This document shows, in pieces, positions 24,982 to 29,851 of a stretch of DNA of 64,000 nt. Below the pieces are notes generated by a model. That model searched no databases, was not told where the DNA came from, and worked only from the letters and a program-made list of their open reading frames with translations. The stretch lies in contig JABDND010000057.1 of assembly GCA_013001145.1 (NCBI GenBank), forward strand, positions 4,174-68,173. The letters run 5' to 3'. The DNA is from Croceitalea sp. GTDB lineage: Bacteria > Bacteroidota > Bacteroidia > Flavobacteriales > Flavobacteriaceae. Both the position numbers and the translations under genes were made by a program. Position 1 is the stretch's first letter, and the number at the start of each line of letters is the position of its first letter.

Positions 24982-26442
24982 CTAAAATTTATAACGTACA
25001 CCACTGTATACCCCAACGGAATAAGGTCTAAAATCACCAGCGGTCTCCGAGAAGGTGTTGAGTTGGTATTTGAAAATAGGCTCCATGCTCAGCTGTATTT
25101 TTGGTGTAAACTGATAATTTAGGCCTAATCCAATATTAGTGCTAAAATTTAAATTGTTCACATTATTGGCCTCGCCCATTTCGGTTATTAACCCATTTGA
25201 TTCCAGGGTAACGGCATTATCAACGAGAAACAGGGAGCTAACCCCACCTATTATGTTCAATCCGAATTTGGCATCTAAAATCGCATAATTTAATTCAAAC
25301 GGAACTTCAACGTACCCCAATTGTTGCACCATACGTCCATCCAAAGTTGGGTTTGTGGCCAAAACTTCTCTATTTGATAAATCGCTCGGCAAAGCATTGG
25401 TTTTGGCTTTGCTCTGAACAACCAGGTTTCTTGATGTTTGGGAATAGTTGATATTATCTATCAATTGATTGGTAGAGGCCAACAAAGAAGATGAGAACAG
25501 CACATCTTCCGTATCATAGCCATAATCAACTTTGTGAATTCCGGAGCGTACACTCAATTTATTACCCAATTGGTAAGAAACGGTCAAGCCATAACTTAGA
25601 TTGATATTACCAGATTTTGAATTACTTGAAAAATTGGAATGAATGGGAGACCCTTCGCCAATAGCTGCAAAATACACCGGGGCAACAGCAGGCCCCATGT
25701 TCCACTTGCCATTGTTTTGTTGATCCGCTACTATAGTTTCTGCGTTATCGGTATCTTGCTCATCAATGGCTTCAAAAATCGATTTTTTGTCATCTTCGGG
25801 CGTAGATTGTACAACAGACTCTGCTTCGGTTTTGTTTTTATTTATTATCGATTCATCTATTTCATCTTGCTGCTCTAGTATTGGTTTTTCATTTTGCTTT
25901 GCAGGTATTGTAGAGGCGAGCGCCTCCTTATTTGTAAAAGGCAATAGTTCGGAATTGTTGGTTTTTTGATCAGCTTTGGTTGTGTTGTCTTTTTTGACGG
26001 TACTCGTAGTGCCCGTGATTTTTGCAAACTTGTCAATCTTTTCACCCTTTGGTTTATTTAAATCTGAATTTGCTTTTATTTCTTTTGAATCTTCTGTCTT
26101 GTTTTCTTCCGCTACTTGTATTGAATTTTCAAAAGCATCTTTTTTGACATCTGTCTCTTTTCTCCTAAAATCTTCTCCGTTTGTTGGTAATGAGGTTTCA
26201 GACTGTTTTGTGTCCGTTACTGATGGTATTTCGACTTCGATTTTTTCAAAAGGATTTATTACATATAATAAGAGTACAAAAATTGCTGCTGCTCCACCCC
26301 AATACCACCAAAAGGGAACTACACGTTTCTTTCTTTTTTTCTCCAAAGAAGCCTCAATATCTTTCCAGACCCTTTCATCGGGTGATTCTTTAAAATCCTT
26401 TAAGCGTTCCTTGAACAGCTTGTCCATTTCGTTATTTTCCAT
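24982..26442 (-). CDS. Putative anti-sigma factor with C-terminal outer-membrane beta-barrel
   Basis: Short N-terminal DKLFKE.L....SP...VW..I domain, one TM helix, about 180-aa charged linker, beta-strands ending GVRYKF; directly after an ECF sigma. Confidence 0.75.
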   Translation of the reverse strand: MENNEMDKLFKERLKDFKESPDERVWKDIEASLEKKRKKRVVPFWWYWGGAAAIFVLLLYVINPFEKIEVEIPSVTDTKQSETSLPTNGEDFRRKETDVKKDAFENSIQVAEENKTEDSKEIKANSDLNKPKGEKIDKFAKITGTTSTVKKDNTTKADQKTNNSELLPFTNKEALASTIPAKQNEKPILEQQDEIDESIINKNKTEAESVVQSTPEDDKKSIFEAIDEQDTDNAETIVADQQNNGKWNMGPAVAPVYFAAIGEGSPIHSNFSSNSKSGNINLSYGLTVSYQLGNKLSVRSGIHKVDYGYDTEDVLFSSSLLASTNQLIDNINYSQTSRNLVVQSKAKTNALPSDLSNREVLATNPTLDGRMVQQLGYVEVPFELNYAILDAKFGLNIIGGVSSLFLVDNAVTLESNGLITEMGEANNVNNLNFSTNIGLGLNYQFTPKIQLSMEPIFKYQLNTFSETAGDFRPYSVGVYSGVRYKF

Positions 26443-26453
26443 ACTTAAAAAGT

Positions 26454-26984
26454 TTAAGCAATGTTTATTTTTTCTTTATCAATTTTTGCTTTCAAAATCA
26501 TTCTTGCCCTAGCCAAGTTTGATTTTGATGTTCCTGTAGAGGTGCCCAATAGCTTGCTTATTTCTTTATGGCTATAGCCATCCAACACGTACAAATTGAA
26601 AGTCAACCGATATTTATTGGGTAATTCTTGAATGTATCCCAATAGGGTTGCCAAATTAATTTCGGTTGCTTCGGTTTCAATCATGGGCTCATCGCCCAAA
26701 TTTTCAGAAACCACTTCCATATGGCGTTGTTTCCTATATTTCTGTAAAACGGTATTGACCGTTATTCTTTTCATCCAACCTTCAAAAGACCCTTTGTCTT
26801 TAAATTGACCTATTTTTTCATAAATGGTCATAAAGCTGTCATGCAGATTGTCTTCGGCCTCGGTTTTATTACGAGAATATTTAAGGCACATTCCAAAAAG
26901 AACGGCCGAATATCTACGGTACAATTCTTCTTGTGCCTTTCTATCGCTCTTTTTACACTTATCTATGAGCTCTTTTAGACTCAA
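26454..26984 (-). CDS. ECF RNA polymerase sigma factor
   Basis: AEDNLHDSF, SFEGWMKRITVN, GYSHKEIS..LG...GTSKSNLARAR. Confidence 0.95.
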   Translation of the reverse strand: MSLKELIDKCKKSDRKAQEELYRRYSAVLFGMCLKYSRNKTEAEDNLHDSFMTIYEKIGQFKDKGSFEGWMKRITVNTVLQKYRKQRHMEVVSENLGDEPMIETEATEINLATLLGYIQELPNKYRLTFNLYVLDGYSHKEISKLLGTSTGTSKSNLARARMILKAKIDKEKINIA

Positions 26985-27010: not shown

Positions 27011-27433
27011 TCAATTATTCATTGTCACGGGCACTTCATATTCCAAATAGGTTGGGTCGCCATTAAGGTCCTCGCCTGAATAAAAACGAAGGATGTACGT
27101 ACCTGAATATATTGCTTTCATAGTGTATATGGCTGTGATGGAATCATTGGTCGTTTCGCATGTTTGATCCGTAAGTTCAGATCCTATGGCCACTATATTG
27201 CGAACACCGTCATTTTCTGATATTACCTCAAAGCCTTGAAAATAGGTGCAATTATCAGGTCTTTCATAAGTGATTTGAATATTGTGCGTGCTGTTGAAGT
27301 CAAAACTTTCGGGGACTGCCGCCGAAGTAATCTTCAACGACACAAAATAGAAATTTTCACCAGTTTTAATGTCGCATCCATTAAAAATAAGCGTTACGCA
27401 CAATACACAAAGTATGCCCAGTTTGTTTTTCAT
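27011..27433 (-). CDS. Hypothetical lipoprotein, first gene of the ECF operon
   Basis: Lipobox FNGC, two further Cys in the mature part, beta-rich. Confidence 0.75.
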   Translation of the reverse strand: MKNKLGILCVLCVTLIFNGCDIKTGENFYFVSLKITSAAVPESFDFNSTHNIQITYERPDNCTYFQGFEVISENDGVRNIVAIGSELTDQTCETTNDSITAIYTMKAIYSGTYILRFYSGEDLNGDPTYLEYEVPVTMNN

Positions 27434-27453: not shown

Positions 27454-27480
27454 AAGATGCTTGTTAAATGCAAGGGTTGC
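27454..27480 (-). promoter_or_regulatory. ECF-type promoter of the lipoprotein-sigma-anti-sigma operon
   Basis: Minus strand GCAACC-N15-CATCTT, 20 nt before the ATG at 27433. Confidence 0.7.
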
Positions 27481-27518: not shown

Positions 27519-28526
27519 TTATGCCTTAACAGTATTGATGGCTTCTTTGATTTTGGCTTCGAGCTCTTCGGCCAATTCAGGATTGTCTTCCAACAAATTC
27601 TTAACGGCATCCCTGCCTTGACCCAATTTAGTCTCGCCATAGCTGAACCAAGATCCACTTTTCTTTATGATTTCATAGGCCACGCCCAAATCAAGAACTT
27701 CTCCTATTTTAGATATTCCCGCACCATACATAATATCAAATTCTGCGGTTTTGAAGGGTGGTGCAACTTTGTTTTTTACGACCTTTACCCTTGTTTTGTT
27801 GCCCAATACGGCACCATCGGTGTTTTTTATTTGTGTTGATCTTCTAATATCCAATCTAACCGAGGCATAAAACTTAAGCGCGTTGCCCCCAGTCGTAGTT
27901 TCTGGATTGCCGAACATCACTCCTATCTTTTCACGTAGTTGGTTGATAAATATGACCGTACAATTGGTCTTGCTTATGGTTGAGGTCAATTTTCGCAGGG
28001 CTTGTGACATCAATCTTGCATGTAGTCCCATTTTCGAGTCTCCCATTTCACCTTCAATTTCACTTTTTGGTGTTAAAGCAGCCACGGAATCAATGATGAC
28101 AATATCAATCGCACCCGATCTAATTAAATTTTCCGTTATCTCTAAAGCCTGTTCCCCGTGATCGGGTTGCGAGATAATTAAATTATCAATATCAACCCCT
28201 AAATTTTTAGCATAAAATCTGTCAAATGCATGTTCCGCATCTATAAAAGCGGCAATGCCACCATTTTTTTGAGCTTCGGCTATGGCATGCAATGTGAGCG
28301 TTGTCTTTCCCGATGATTCAGGACCGTAAATTTCAACAACTCGCCCTCTTGGGTACCCACCAACGCCCAAGGCGATGTCCAATCCCAATGAACCTGACGG
28401 AATCACTTCAACATCTTCAATGACACTATCCCCCATTTTCATTACGGCACCTTTTCCGTAGGTTTTATCCAGTTTATCCAGGGTAATTTTTAACGCTTTT
28501 AATTTTGCCTCGCTTTGATTGCTCAT
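27519..28526 (-). CDS. recA: Recombinase RecA
   Basis: [32 protein letters not shown]. Confidence 0.99.
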
Positions 28527-28582
28527 TTTTTAAAAAATTAGACGATAAAAATACCACTTCTTTGTCATTTCTGGAATGTTGC

Positions 28583-28609
28583 GCAACCTTTTTAAATCAA
28601 GTTCATCTT
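28583..28609 (+). promoter_or_regulatory. Second copy of the ECF-type promoter
   Basis: GCAACC-TTTTTAAATCAAGTT-CATCTT, same boxes and 15-nt spacer as 27454-27480. Confidence 0.65.
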
Positions 28610-28614
28610 TCAAT

Positions 28615-28737
28615 CAACCATTTTAAATAGAGATAGGCAGGTTTTTAAAGTATTATGACCACATTTTCAAAGTTTACCTATGAAAAAGAAAGGTAAGTGG
28701 TCAAAGGGCATCTTTTCCCAAGGATGCCCTTTTATTT
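28615..28737 (+). ncRNA. Candidate ECF-dependent small RNA (about 120 nt; 5' end approximate)
   Basis: Follows the ECF promoter; internal stems TGACCAC/GTGGTCA and TTACCT/AGGTAA; ends in a strong terminator; trhO has its own promoter further downstream. Confidence 0.5.
28703..28737 (+). terminator. Rho-independent terminator in the divergent recA-trhO spacer
   Basis: AAAGGGCATC..GATGCCCTTT followed by TATTT. Confidence 0.75.
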
Positions 28738-28801
28738 CTATTTCTTACTTTTGTGGGCTGAATACTCGCTTAACATTCTTTAACTTAAATATTGGTATAG
28801 C

Positions 28802-29851
28802 ATGCAACTGTACAATACATTAAGTGCAAAAGAGAGGGAAAAACTGATTGAGGAAGCCGGAAAAGAGCGGCTGACCATCTCTTTCTATAAATATGCACAA
28901 ATAGGAAATCCTAAAATTTTTAGGAATCATCTTTTTGTTCACTGGGACACTTTGGAAGTACTAGGAAGAATTTATGTCGCCAAAGAAGGGATCAATGCCC
29001 AACTTTCTGTTCCTGCCGACAATTTTGAGGCCTTCAAAGCCCATTTGGACAGCATTTCTTTTTTAAACAATGTTCGCTTGAACATTGCCATTGAACAAGA
29101 CAATAAATCGTTTTTAAAACTCAAGATCAAGGTTCGGCATAAAATAGTTGCCGATGGTCTAAATGACGGGACTTTTGATGTAACCAAAAAAGGGGTTCAT
29201 GTAGATGCCAAAAAATTCAATGAACTCATTGAAGACCCGCAAAGTATAGTGGTTGATATGCGTAACCATTATGAAAGTGAAATAGGCCATTTTGAAAGAG
29301 CCATCACCCCCGATGTAGACACCTTTAGGGATTCTCTAGATATTATTGAGGAACAACTGGCAGCACATAAAGAAGACAAGAAACTGGTTATGTATTGTAC
29401 AGGGGGCATTCGCTGTGAAAAGGCCAGCGCTTACTATAAGCATAAGGGGTTTAAGAATGTGTACCAATTGGAAGGGGGAATCATCGAATACACCCGTCAA
29501 GTTCGAGATGAAGGATTGGAAAACAAATTCAAGGGAAAAAACTTTGTGTTTGACCATCGTCGCGGGGAGCGTATCTCTGAAGATGTCATTGCCCAATGCC
29601 ATCAATGTGGCCAGCCCTGTGATACCCATGTAAACTGCGCCAATGAAGCATGCCACTTGCTGTTCATTCAATGTGAAAATTGCGCTCAAGCCATGGACGA
29701 ATGTTGTTCGGATTCTTGTAAAGAAATCCATGCACTGCCCTTTGAAGAACAGAAAAAACTGCGAAAGGGCAAACATGCCAGTAATAAAATATTCAAAAAG
29801 GGACGTTCCGAAGTGCTAAAGTTTAAAAAGCAATCCCAATACCCTACTTAA
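28802..29851 (+). CDS. trhO: tRNA U34 hydroxylase TrhO (YceA/UPF0176, rhodanese domain)
   Basis: GRIYVAKEGINAQ, DMRNHYE, YCTGGIRCEKA, Cys-rich C-terminus; TACTTTTG promoter at 28746-28753. Confidence 0.92.
   Translation: MQLYNTLSAKEREKLIEEAGKERLTISFYKYAQIGNPKIFRNHLFVHWDTLEVLGRIYVAKEGINAQLSVPADNFEAFKAHLDSISFLNNVRLNIAIEQDNKSFLKLKIKVRHKIVADGLNDGTFDVTKKGVHVDAKKFNELIEDPQSIVVDMRNHYESEIGHFERAITPDVDTFRDSLDIIEEQLAAHKEDKKLVMYCTGGIRCEKASAYYKHKGFKNVYQLEGGIIEYTRQVRDEGLENKFKGKNFVFDHRRGERISEDVIAQCHQCGQPCDTHVNCANEACHLLFIQCENCAQAMDECCSDSCKEIHALPFEEQKKLRKGKHASNKIFKKGRSEVLKFKKQSQYPT

What the first reader, a model, noticed from the sequence alone, without database searches (positions are those of the whole stretch)
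28583..28737. Candidate ECF-sigma-dependent structured sRNA between recA and trhO
Seen: the 275-bp divergent spacer holds GCAACC-N15-CATCTT (28583-28609, + strand). Both boxes and the spacer length are identical to the promoter before the ECF operon (27454-27480, - strand). Downstream lies a bulged hairpin (TGACCAC 28656-62 with GTGGTCA 28697-703; TTACCT 28674-79 with AGGTAA 28691-96), then a strong intrinsic terminator (28703-37). trhO has its own TACTTTTG promoter after the terminator, so no annotated gene explains this terminator. Known: ECF sigmas usually autoregulate, and enterobacterial sigmaE uses the sRNAs MicA and RybB to repress outer-membrane protein mRNAs. Inference: this is an unannotated ~120-nt RNA acting as the repressive arm of a Flavobacteriaceae envelope-stress ECF, in a phylum without canonical Hfq. 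A 13-codon ORF (28655-28696, MTTFSKFTYEKER) lies inside it and is an alternative product.
Basis: partly seen in the sequence, partly recalled or inferred. Interest (0 to 1): 0.8.

Follow-up and report, generated by a model that had tools for sequence, protein, structure and literature searches.

The report
ECF-sigma-linked small RNA beside recA
Between recA and trhO this Croceitalea genome carries a likely ~120-nt non-coding RNA gene whose promoter matches that of the neighbouring stress sigma-factor (ECF) operon, and the locus recurs in over 40 Flavobacteriaceae genera, which would make it the first such sigma-linked RNA proposed in this phylum.

Summary
GCAACC-N15-CATCTT occurs exactly twice in the 2.64-Mb genome. 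One copy lies before the lipoprotein/ECF sigma/anti-sigma operon. The other points away from recA towards a hairpin and a strong terminator.

Comparative data make this more than chance:
- All 15 Croceitalea genomes keep the sRNA-side promoter, and all 14 with the flank assembled keep the operon promoter, while the promoter spacers diverge.
- The locus recurs in Flagellimonas, Croceivirga, Arenibacter and 40 or more further Flavobacteriaceae genera.
- The recA-side promoter was found in 0 of 7 genomes that lack the ECF operon beside recA.
- The central hairpin shows compensatory changes at family level. Its purine-rich loop (YUAUGAAAAAGAAA) is almost invariant.
- No ORF is conserved, and there is no Rfam match.
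- trhO has its own promoter. Insertions, and in four genera a whole gene, separate it from the terminator, so this is not a trhO leader.

The ECF-dependent small-RNA reading is well supported by sequence. Expression, sigma dependence, targets and a repressive role on outer-membrane protein mRNAs remain untested, and my target scans found nothing.

In distant genera the same promoter drives a different transcript, which often holds a conserved 30-aa ORF ending in DGG.

The scan index held no earlier report of this RNA on other DNA.

The parts
24982..26442 (-). 486-aa putative anti-sigma factor with a C-terminal outer-membrane beta-barrel domain; last gene of the ECF operon
   Evidence: Pfam OMP_b-brl_2. 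It follows the ECF sigma gene in all relatives examined.
26454..26984 (-). ECF-type sigma-70 factor (176 aa)
   Evidence: Pfam Sigma70_r2, Sigma70_r4_2 and Sigma70_ECF; NCBIfam TIGR02937 sigma70-ECF above its cut-off.
27011..27433 (-). 140-aa lipoprotein-like first gene of the ECF operon
   Evidence: ORF starts MKNKLGILCVLCVTLIFNGC. No Pfam or NCBIfam match. Homologues found in 104 of 151 Flavobacteriaceae genera.
27454..27480 (-). ECF-type promoter of the operon (GCAACC-N15-CATCTT)
   Evidence: Conserved as ACGCAACC-N15-CATCT at this position in 14 Croceitalea genomes and in dozens of genera, while the spacer diverges.
27519..28526 (-). recA, transcribed away from the RNA gene
   Evidence: Pfam RecA, E = 2e-140.
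28581..28609 (+). ECF-type promoter of the small RNA: -35 GCGCAACC 28581-28588, 15-nt spacer, -10 CATCT(T) 28604-28609
   Evidence: CGCAACC and ATC are invariant in alignment A1 of 15 Croceitalea spacers. Conserved in 40 or more genera.
28616..28737 (+). Predicted small RNA, about 120 nt. The start is inferred at about 7 nt after the -10 box. The 3' end lies in the U-tract.
   Evidence: Covariance models R1 and R2 match 28615-28736 at 101.8 and 79.9 bits. Fold. No experimental 5' or 3' ends are available.
28628..28647 (+). P0: weak, sequence-variable 5' hairpin
   Evidence: A hairpin at the equivalent place has a different sequence in nearly every genus. This was judged by eye and is not statistically tested.
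28656..28703 (+). P1: central hairpin with outer stem TGACCAC/GTGGTCA and inner stem TTACCT/AGGTAA
   Evidence: The outer stem shows AU<->GC and CG<->UA exchanges across 32 sequences. One-sided changes give G-U, which fits only the + strand.
28678..28691 (+). Invariant purine-rich apical motif CUAUGAAAAAGAAA; candidate contact surface
   Evidence: TATGAAAA.G is invariant in A1. TGAA and G are invariant across 32 sequences of many genera. The AUG is not always kept (AUUG in L086, GUG in L078).
28703..28737 (+). Intrinsic terminator: 13-pair stem-loop plus TTTTATTT
   Evidence: 9 of 10 stem pairs show compensatory changes across genera. The U-tract lies on the + strand only.
28746..28753 (+). 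trhO's own sigma-A type -7 box (TACTTTTG)
   Evidence: TAnnTTTG is invariant at a fixed distance from trhO in A1. Insertions in G004, G014 and G015 fall between the terminator and this box.
28802..29851 (+). trhO (oxygen-dependent tRNA U34 hydroxylase); the downstream neighbour, not part of the RNA unit
   Evidence: NCBIfam NF001133 TrhO, 266 bits against a cut-off of 170.

Best explanation
An independent small non-coding RNA gene of about 120 nt (28616-28737, + strand) that belongs to the regulon of the adjacent ECF sigma factor (26454-26984).

Proposed sequence of events:
1. When the membrane-spanning anti-sigma (24982-26442) releases the sigma factor, RNA polymerase with this sigma starts at two ACGCAACC-N15-CATCT promoters that flank recA. 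One drives the lipoprotein/sigma/anti-sigma operon (autoregulation). The other, divergent from recA, drives the RNA.
2. Transcription stops at the intrinsic terminator, before trhO's own promoter.
3. The RNA has a short 5' single strand, a variable hairpin P0, a conserved hairpin P1 that displays the invariant purine-rich loop CUAUGAAAAAGAAA, and the terminator hairpin.
4. I propose that it acts in trans without Hfq, through that loop, most likely by pairing with U/C-rich stretches of target mRNAs.

Shown here by sequence comparison: the promoter pair, the terminator, the P1 covariation, the non-coding nature, the linkage to the ECF operon and the independence from trhO. Inferred: transcription itself, sigma dependence, the trans-acting mode, and everything about targets.
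For: - The exact motif occurs only twice in the genome, on either side of recA.
- The sRNA-side promoter is kept in all 15 Croceitalea genomes and the operon-side promoter in all 14 with the flank assembled, while the 15-nt spacers diverge.
- The same two-promoter locus is found in Flagellimonas/Allomuricauda, Croceivirga, Arenibacter and a MAG, in 22 of 24 assessable further genera and in 17 of 19 more distant ones.
- The -35 variant AAGCAACC appears in both promoters of the same genomes (L083, L085, L092, L094).
- The same motif, with the same geometry, precedes a third unit, a 131-aa lipoprotein gene, in G000 and in 8 of 10 other Croceitalea genomes that have it. The motif therefore behaves as a regulon promoter.
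- Co-occurrence: 0 of 7 genomes without an ECF operon beside recA have the divergent promoter. Where recA and trhO are still adjacent in those genomes, the spacer is only 123-145 nt.
- Family-level covariance model R2 gives 62 bits or more in 24 of 151 genera, always at this locus, with a clear gap to the noise at 43 bits or less.
- P1 and the terminator: 90.9% of cells are paired against 77.1% in shuffles; 16 of 19 pairs show double changes; slid-register controls collapse to 34-58%.
- No conserved ORF. The reading frame from the loop AUG runs 5-47 aa with no similarity beyond MKK, and the AUG is replaced in two genera.
- The RNA is independent of trhO. A conserved TAnnTTTG box lies after the terminator, insertions fall between them, and a whole U32-peptidase gene lies between them in 4 genera.
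Against: - There are no transcript data for any genome that carries the locus. The only flavobacterial TSS atlas I could read (F. psychrophilum, PMC9723704) lacks this arrangement.
- The body of the RNA is only weakly structured (mean z -1.3), and the + strand is favoured in only 17 of 22 full-length folds.
- No target was found. Complementarity scans of G000 start regions and of the neighbouring recA, trhO and lipoprotein leaders did not exceed shuffled controls.
- A purine-rich loop cannot pair with the A-rich translation-initiation regions typical of Bacteroidota.
- The 5' motif CUAACUCAA, conserved in other genera, is degraded in this window.
- 5 of 7 genera with an ECF operon that lacks the lipoprotein gene have no recA-side promoter.
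- In distant genera the same promoter drives a different body, often with a real 30-aa ORF. The ancestral product may therefore have been a protein.
Confidence: 0.68

Rival explanations
1. An ECF-inducible leader or attenuator. The promoter is a second, stress-responsive promoter for trhO (and for the U32/TrhP-like gene where present). The hairpin and terminator form a conditional attenuator, so the short RNA is only the terminated by-product.
For: The element is on the same strand as trhO and directly upstream of it in most genera. Where another gene intervenes, it is a U32-family protein whose best match is TrhP, the alternative tRNA U34 hydroxylase, followed by trhO. The neighbourhood therefore stays linked to tRNA hydroxylation.
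Against: - A conserved sigma-A box (TAnnTTTG) sits between the terminator and trhO at a fixed distance from the start codon. Insertions of 30-150 nt (G004, G014, G015) and spacers over 500 nt (L118, L124-L126) fall upstream of it.
- The terminator is strong (13 pairs, long U-tract).
- No conserved sequence can pair with the terminator's 5' arm as an anti-terminator. The terminator stems change freely while P1 stays constant.
- recA and trhO are adjacent without the element in genomes that lack the ECF operon.
Confidence: 0.12
2. A decaying relic of an ECF-controlled small-protein gene. The ancestral product was the 30-aa protein seen in distant genera. In the Croceitalea clade the ORF was lost, and the leftover transcript has little or no function of its own.
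For: Fourteen loci from distant genera (13 genera; L098 and L109 are the same genome) carry a 21-32 aa ORF ending in DGG at the same promoter and position. Seven of them are exactly 30 codons long. Their variation by codon position is 196/126/298, a coding pattern. The P0, GATGG, P1, terminator layout is shared. The window's 5' motif is degraded.
Against: The non-coding form is under clear purifying selection. The loop motif is invariant, P1 is maintained by compensatory changes, and both promoter and terminator are intact over at least 24 genera. A relic would not keep these features.
Confidence: 0.08
3. A tiny translated ORF is the product: either the loop ORF (MKKK...) or the window-specific 13-aa ORF 28655-28696.
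For: AUGAAAAAGAAA is almost invariant and reads Met-Lys-Lys-Lys. The 13-codon ORF exists in the window.
Against: - The loop ORF runs 5-47 aa with unrelated sequences and runs through the terminator in several species.
- The AUG is AUUG in L086 and GUG in L078.
- Position -3 is U, not the A favoured in flavobacterial start contexts. This last point is my recollection of Baez et al. 2019 and was not checked here.
- The 13-aa ORF has no start codon in any other Croceitalea genome.
Confidence: 0.04
4. A DNA-level element rather than an RNA, for example operator sites that regulate recA or trhO. In this reading the inverted repeats would be protein-binding sites.
For: The element lies in a divergent promoter region. 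GACCAC and GTGGTC form an inverted repeat.
Against: The stem tolerates A-to-G and C-to-U changes that keep G-U pairs on the + strand only and shows compensatory double changes. The bipartite AAC...ATC motif with fixed 15-nt spacing also sits before two protein-coding units at a promoter-like distance. A canonical terminator follows.
Confidence: 0.03

Closest known systems
Enterobacterial and Vibrio sigma-E-dependent sRNAs (MicA, RybB, MicL; VrrA, MicV)
   Same: A small non-coding RNA with its own ECF-type promoter (AAC-containing -35 box, short C/T-rich -10 box) and an intrinsic terminator. It belongs to the same regulon as the autoregulated sigma/anti-sigma operon.
   Different: There is no sequence or Rfam relationship, and no Hfq in this genome. 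No OMP target is identified. The conserved surface is a purine-rich hairpin loop rather than a 5'-terminal seed. The gene is physically linked to the sigma operon, with recA between them.
Fusobacterium nucleatum sigma-E-dependent sRNAs FoxI and FoxJ (PMC11005410; title and abstract only)
   Same: An ECF sigma plus sRNA arrangement outside the Proteobacteria, in a lineage without Hfq or ProQ. This shows that the logic is not restricted to Proteobacteria.
   Different: It is a different phylum with no detectable homology. FoxI and FoxJ are validated experimentally, whereas this RNA is only predicted.
Bacteroides thetaiotaomicron and Flavobacterium psychrophilum sRNA catalogues (GibS, MasB, Rfp1-88; PMC7366714, PMC9723704)
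   Same: Hfq-independent, AT-rich sRNAs of Bacteroidota. Two F. psychrophilum sRNAs (Rfp31, Rfp74) are listed as transcribed from ECF-type SM6 promoters.
   Different: None lies at a recA/ECF locus. F. psychrophilum recA has a different neighbourhood. The SM6 motif (GTAAC...CGT) differs from ACGCAACC-N15-CATCT. None of the Rfam Bacteroides sRNA families matches (BTnc231, 12 bits on the terminator only).
Bacteroides fragilis EcfO/Reo system (Ndamukong et al. 2013; paper not held; recalled from memory and from the scan note e1-5462642)
   Same: A Bacteroidota ECF sigma co-transcribed with its anti-sigma, reported to control lipoprotein genes. Here the motif also precedes two lipoprotein genes.
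   Different: Orthology was not tested. I am not aware of any sRNA described in the EcfO regulon. The EcfO recognition motif could not be compared.

Membership tests
ECF-sigma-dependent trans-acting sRNA (functional class) | Promoter of the type recognised by an ECF sigma and shared with that sigma's autoregulated operon | tested here: met
   The same ACGCAACC-N15-CATCT motif lies before the operon, the RNA and a third lipoprotein unit. It is conserved and co-varies across genera. Recognition by this particular sigma is inferred, not shown.
ECF-sigma-dependent trans-acting sRNA (functional class) | A discrete short transcript that ends at an intrinsic terminator and is not co-transcribed with a neighbouring gene | tested here: inconclusive
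   A strong terminator with compensatory changes, trhO's own promoter, and insertions downstream. The transcript itself cannot be observed with these tools.
ECF-sigma-dependent trans-acting sRNA (functional class) | Non-coding: no conserved reading frame | tested here: met
ECF-sigma-dependent trans-acting sRNA (functional class) | A conserved seed complementary to target mRNAs (OMP or envelope genes in the enterobacterial paradigm) | tested here: inconclusive
   A conserved single-stranded motif exists, but no target exceeded shuffled controls.
Enterobacterial MicA/RybB/MicL families (Rfam) | Match to the family covariance model; Hfq-dependent | tested here: not met
   No Rfam match at gathering scores in the window or in 13 relatives. 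Only chance-level matches at E up to 10. Hfq (PF17209) was not found in G000, which is 88% complete.
Transcription attenuator or leader of the downstream gene | No promoter between the element and the regulated gene, and constant juxtaposition to it | tested here: not met
   A conserved TAnnTTTG box lies after the terminator, with variable insertions and a whole U32 gene in between.
Transcription attenuator or leader of the downstream gene | A mutually exclusive anti-terminator structure | tested here: inconclusive
   None was seen in the consensus folds. No dedicated search for alternative folds was made.
DGG small-protein gene found at the same promoter in distant genera | ORF of about 30 codons, M(K/R)FF...(C[KR]A or L)DGG-stop | tested here: not met
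   No such ORF in the window's spacer or anywhere in G000 (regex over six frames). None in the 24-genus non-coding clade.

The most novel reading that the evidence does not exclude
The locus is one evolving ECF-controlled 'riboregulator or micro-protein' gene. In some Flavobacteriaceae the ECF promoter drives an mRNA for a 30-aa protein ending in DGG. In others it drives a short RNA, and in the Croceitalea/Flagellimonas clade a purely non-coding RNA. The motifs GCUAUGAAA and CUAACUCAA are kept throughout but in different arrangements.

In the non-coding form, the invariant loop AUGAAAAAGAAA resembles the start of a typical secreted-protein mRNA (Met-Lys-Lys-Lys). It might therefore act as a decoy for a factor that binds such initiation regions, rather than as an antisense seed. 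That would give the envelope-stress sigma a way to damp synthesis of exported proteins in a phylum that lacks Shine-Dalgarno-based initiation and Hfq.
Probability: 0.15. Interest if true: 0.85.

Novelty: new member of a known kind. Interest (0 to 1): 0.62.

Why it matters
Post-transcriptional arms of ECF sigma regulons are textbook in Proteobacteria and were recently found in Fusobacteria. I found none described for Bacteroidota, a phylum with dozens of ECF sigmas per genome, no Hfq or ProQ, and non-canonical translation initiation.

This locus offers a well-defined entry point that is widespread (40 or more genera) and, in cultured strains, open to genetic testing. It provides:
- a promoter motif that can be assigned to one specific ECF sigma;
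- a very small predicted regulon of two lipoprotein units plus one RNA;
- an RNA family not in Rfam.

The change between coding and non-coding bodies behind the same promoter is also a rare natural series for studying how sRNAs and micro-protein genes turn into one another.

Tried and rejected
- Rfam. Gathering thresholds on the whole window and on 13 related loci, and E up to 10 on 28400-28900, gave nothing beyond chance hits to the terminator.
- Small ORFs. The loop ORF MKKK... varies from 5 to 47 aa. The 47-aa ORF 28680-28823 runs through the terminator and is not conserved.
- Genus-level model R1 found the RNA in only 3 genera. This was a sensitivity limit, corrected with the family-level alignment A4 and model R2.
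- Target prediction gave no signal above shuffles. I tried RNAduplex of the 5' region and the P1 loop against about 2,270 crude start regions of G000, a search for complements of the loop motif, and sRNA versus the recA, trhO and lipoprotein leaders in 21 genera (one search timed out). duplexfold on long inputs gives loopy, uninformative duplexes. Gene starts were called crudely as the first ATG.
- Strand and structure test by MFE was only weakly discriminating.
- Experimental support. The F. psychrophilum atlas has no equivalent locus. The EcfO paper is not held, and a search for 'EcfO' was swamped by unrelated acronyms.
- The earlier-findings index held nothing on this RNA by sequence or by words.
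- The small DGG proteins have no Pfam or NCBIfam family.
- I considered a LexA/SOS operator or another DNA site and rejected it because of the strand-specific G-U changes and the promoter-like geometry.

Full report
**1. The observation**

- GCAACC (28583-88), a 15-nt spacer and CATCTT (28604-09) on the + strand.
- The same boxes and spacing at 27454-27480 on the - strand.
- The bulged hairpin 28656-28703.
- A 13-pair terminator 28703-28732 followed by TTTTATTT.
- The 13-codon ORF 28655-28696.

Pfam and NCBIfam confirm the neighbours. recA lies at 27519-28526 on the - strand and trhO at 28802-29851 on the + strand. A three-gene operon lies on the - strand: a 140-aa lipoprotein-like protein, an ECF sigma factor, and a 486-aa protein with an outer-membrane beta-barrel domain.

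The exact bipartite pattern occurs only twice in the 2.64-Mb assembly, both copies flanking recA. I estimate about 0.25 copies expected from composition. Within the window alone the statistic is weak, so the case rests on comparison with other genomes.

**2. Conservation within the genus**

Record titles identify the genus as Croceitalea. The recA-trhO spacer is recognisable at about 70% identity in 14 of 15 congeners.

In the alignment (A1) the following are conserved:
- the -35 block CGCAACC, which is invariant;
- the -10 core ATC, which is invariant;
- the hairpin arms: GTGG and parts of the 5' arm are invariant, the rest nearly so;
- the loop TATGAAAA.G, which is invariant;
- the trhO -7 box (TA.TTTTG; its third position varies).

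The promoter spacer, the 5' part of the RNA and the terminator stem vary, and the terminator varies with compensatory changes. Three genomes have insertions between the terminator and the trhO promoter.

Every Croceitalea genome with enough flank also keeps ACGCAACC-N15-CATCT before the lipoprotein/ECF/anti-sigma operon on the other side of recA.

**3. Conservation beyond the genus**

- A pattern scan of about 186,000 species genomes found the promoter-plus-loop combination, again between recA and trhO and beside the ECF operon, in Flagellimonas/Allomuricauda, Croceivirga, Arenibacter and an unnamed MAG. About 9 obviously random hits also appeared.
- I sampled one genome per genus of the family through the lipoprotein gene, which is present in 104 of 151 genera. 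The two-promoter arrangement was found in 22 of 24 assessable genera. It was also found in 17 of 19 more distant ones.
- In four genera the -35 block reads AAGCAACC in both promoters. This parallel change is what one expects if a single sigma reads both promoters, although the four genera may represent a single event.
- The motif also precedes a 131-aa lipoprotein gene at the same distance from the start codon (about -46). This holds in G000 (contig C172) and in 8 of 10 other Croceitalea genomes that have that gene. The motif therefore behaves as the promoter of a small regulon.

**4. Linkage to the ECF system**

I examined 14 genera that lack the lipoprotein gene.
- Seven have no ECF operon beside recA, and none of them has the divergent promoter. 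In three of these, recA and trhO are still neighbours, and the spacer is only 123-145 nt.
- Seven have the sigma/anti-sigma pair without the lipoprotein gene, and two of them have the promoter.

The RNA-side promoter was therefore never seen without the ECF operon, but the operon can exist without it. These genera are related to one another, so the counts are descriptive and do not amount to a statistical test.

**5. The RNA**

A family-level alignment of 32 sequences (A4) and RNAalifold give two helices.
- P1, the central hairpin, shows AU/GC/GU at one pair (12/12/5 sequences), CG/UG/UA at another (21/6/4) and CG/UA at a third (26/3).
- In the terminator, 9 of 10 pairs show double changes.
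- Overall, 90.9% of cells pair, against 77.1% in column shuffles and 34-58% when the register is slid.
- Within the genus, the one-sided changes in P1 are A-to-G or C-to-U. These keep G-U pairs on the + strand and would be A-C mismatches on the - strand.

A hairpin P0 precedes P1 in nearly all sequences but has unrelated sequences. I judged it by eye only.

The apical motif YUAUGAAAAAGAAA is the most conserved part of the RNA. A second motif, CUAACUCAA(U/A)AU, lies near the 5' end in many genera but is degraded in this window.

The body without the terminator is only modestly more stable than shuffles (mean z -1.3).

Model R2 scores 62 bits or more in 24 of 151 genera, always at this locus, with nothing between 62 and 43 bits. 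No Rfam family matches here or in 13 relatives.

**6. Coding or not**

The frame opened by the loop AUG is 5-47 codons long with unrelated sequences. The AUG itself is AUUG or GUG in two genera. In this clade the product is an RNA.

**7. Not a trhO leader**

trhO keeps its own TAnnTTTG box after the terminator. Insertions always fall upstream of that box, and some spacers exceed 500 nt. In four genera a complete U32-family gene with its own promoter lies between the RNA and trhO, or replaces trhO. Its best match is TrhP, below the family cut-off. This neighbour again concerns tRNA U34 hydroxylation, which is worth noting. I therefore keep the leader model as the main rival, at about 0.12.

**8. 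Distant relatives change the picture**

In more distant genera the same promoter at the same place drives bodies that R2 does not recognise.
- The 'short' form has UUUUGCUAUGAAA near the 5' end and GACUAACUCAAA just before the terminator.
- The 'long' form contains an ORF of 21-32 codons ending in DGG-stop, found at 14 loci from 13 genera (L098 and L109 are the same genome).

Seven of these ORFs are exactly 30 codons long, without indels. Their differences by codon position are 196/126/298, a coding signature. They match no Pfam or NCBIfam family. G000 has no such ORF.

The locus thus looks like an ECF-controlled gene whose product switched between a micro-protein and a non-coding RNA. The direction of the switch is unknown.

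**9. Mechanism**

Inferred with good support: release of the ECF sigma activates the operon, the RNA and the C172 lipoprotein gene together.

Inferred with weak support: the RNA acts in trans through its purine-rich loop.

I could not find targets. The loop cannot pair with the A-rich initiation regions typical of this phylum. Hfq was not found in this 88%-complete assembly.

**10. Comparison and novelty**

The logic is that of the sigma-E-dependent sRNAs of Proteobacteria (MicA, RybB, MicL, VrrA, MicV) and of Fusobacterium (FoxI, FoxJ; PMC11005410). Sequence, structure and lineage are unrelated to those.

I found no report of an ECF-dependent sRNA at a recA locus in Bacteroidota. I checked papers by full-text search and the B. 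thetaiotaomicron and F. psychrophilum atlases.

I class it as a new member of a known kind, and as a new RNA family.

**Verdict**

The 'ECF-dependent small RNA' reading is well supported by comparative genomics (0.68). Its function and targets remain open.

Noticed in passing
Related loci: L148:1389-1481:+, L159:1331-1423:+, L155:624-716:-, L157:1380-1472:+, L146:754-846:-, L145:719-811:-, L142:694-786:-, and also L099, L140, L151, L161, L098/L109, L106: A conserved micro-protein ORF of 21-32 aa, M(K/R)FF...(C[KR]A or L)DGG-stop, lies behind the same ECF-type promoter beside recA in distant Flavobacteriaceae genera. Seven copies are exactly 30 codons long, with third-position-biased variation (196/126/298). 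No Pfam or NCBIfam family matches. Absent from the window's genome.
   Followed up: partly
G000 contig C172:12606-12631 (outside the window; locus L178/L179): A third copy of the promoter motif (TGCAACC-N15-CATCT) lies 19 nt before a 131-aa lipoprotein gene (MLKQYFFLAAIFVVYGC...). The motif is kept about 44-47 nt before the start codon (116 nt in two genomes) in 8 of 10 other Croceitalea genomes that have a homologue. This gene is a probable further member of the ECF regulon.
   Followed up: yes
L113:150-1391:- (G087), L127 (G030), L134 (G169), L143 (G153): In four genera a U32-family peptidase gene lies between the RNA and trhO, or replaces trhO as in G153. Its best NCBIfam match is the prephenate-dependent tRNA U34 hydroxylase TrhP (191 bits, below the cut-off). 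Two alternative tRNA-U34 hydroxylase genes therefore share this neighbourhood. G000 has no U32 homologue.
   Followed up: partly
window 28770-28805: The 30 nt before the trhO start (..CTTTAACTTAAA.TATTGGTATAGC-ATG) are nearly invariant across the whole family. In F. psychrophilum, the supplementary TSS table of PMC9723704 lists an ECF-type (SM6) TSS 2 nt before the yceA/trhO ATG. The block may therefore be a second promoter that gives a leaderless trhO mRNA.
   Followed up: partly
L009:1239-1713:- (G004); L157 (G032) spacer: Insertions between the RNA terminator and the trhO promoter. G004 has a ~150-nt element with long inverted repeats (GGTGGTTTCGAGTGCCTCAACCACC...). G032 has about 300 nt of CTGCCAACTGAATA-like tandem repeats.
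   Followed up: no
L165, L167, L168, L169, L172, L173, L174 (genera g7, g17, g77, g58, g11, g82, g49): A variant ECF operon beside recA lacks the leading lipoprotein gene but keeps ACGCAACC-N15-(C/T)ATCT directly before the sigma gene. Only 2 of these 7 also have the RNA-side promoter.
   Followed up: no
L083, L085, L092, L094 (and, in one promoter only, L086 and L161): The -35 block reads AAGCAACC instead of ACGCAACC, and in four genera the change is present in both the operon and the RNA promoters. This is a possible co-evolution signal with the sigma's region 4.
   Followed up: partly
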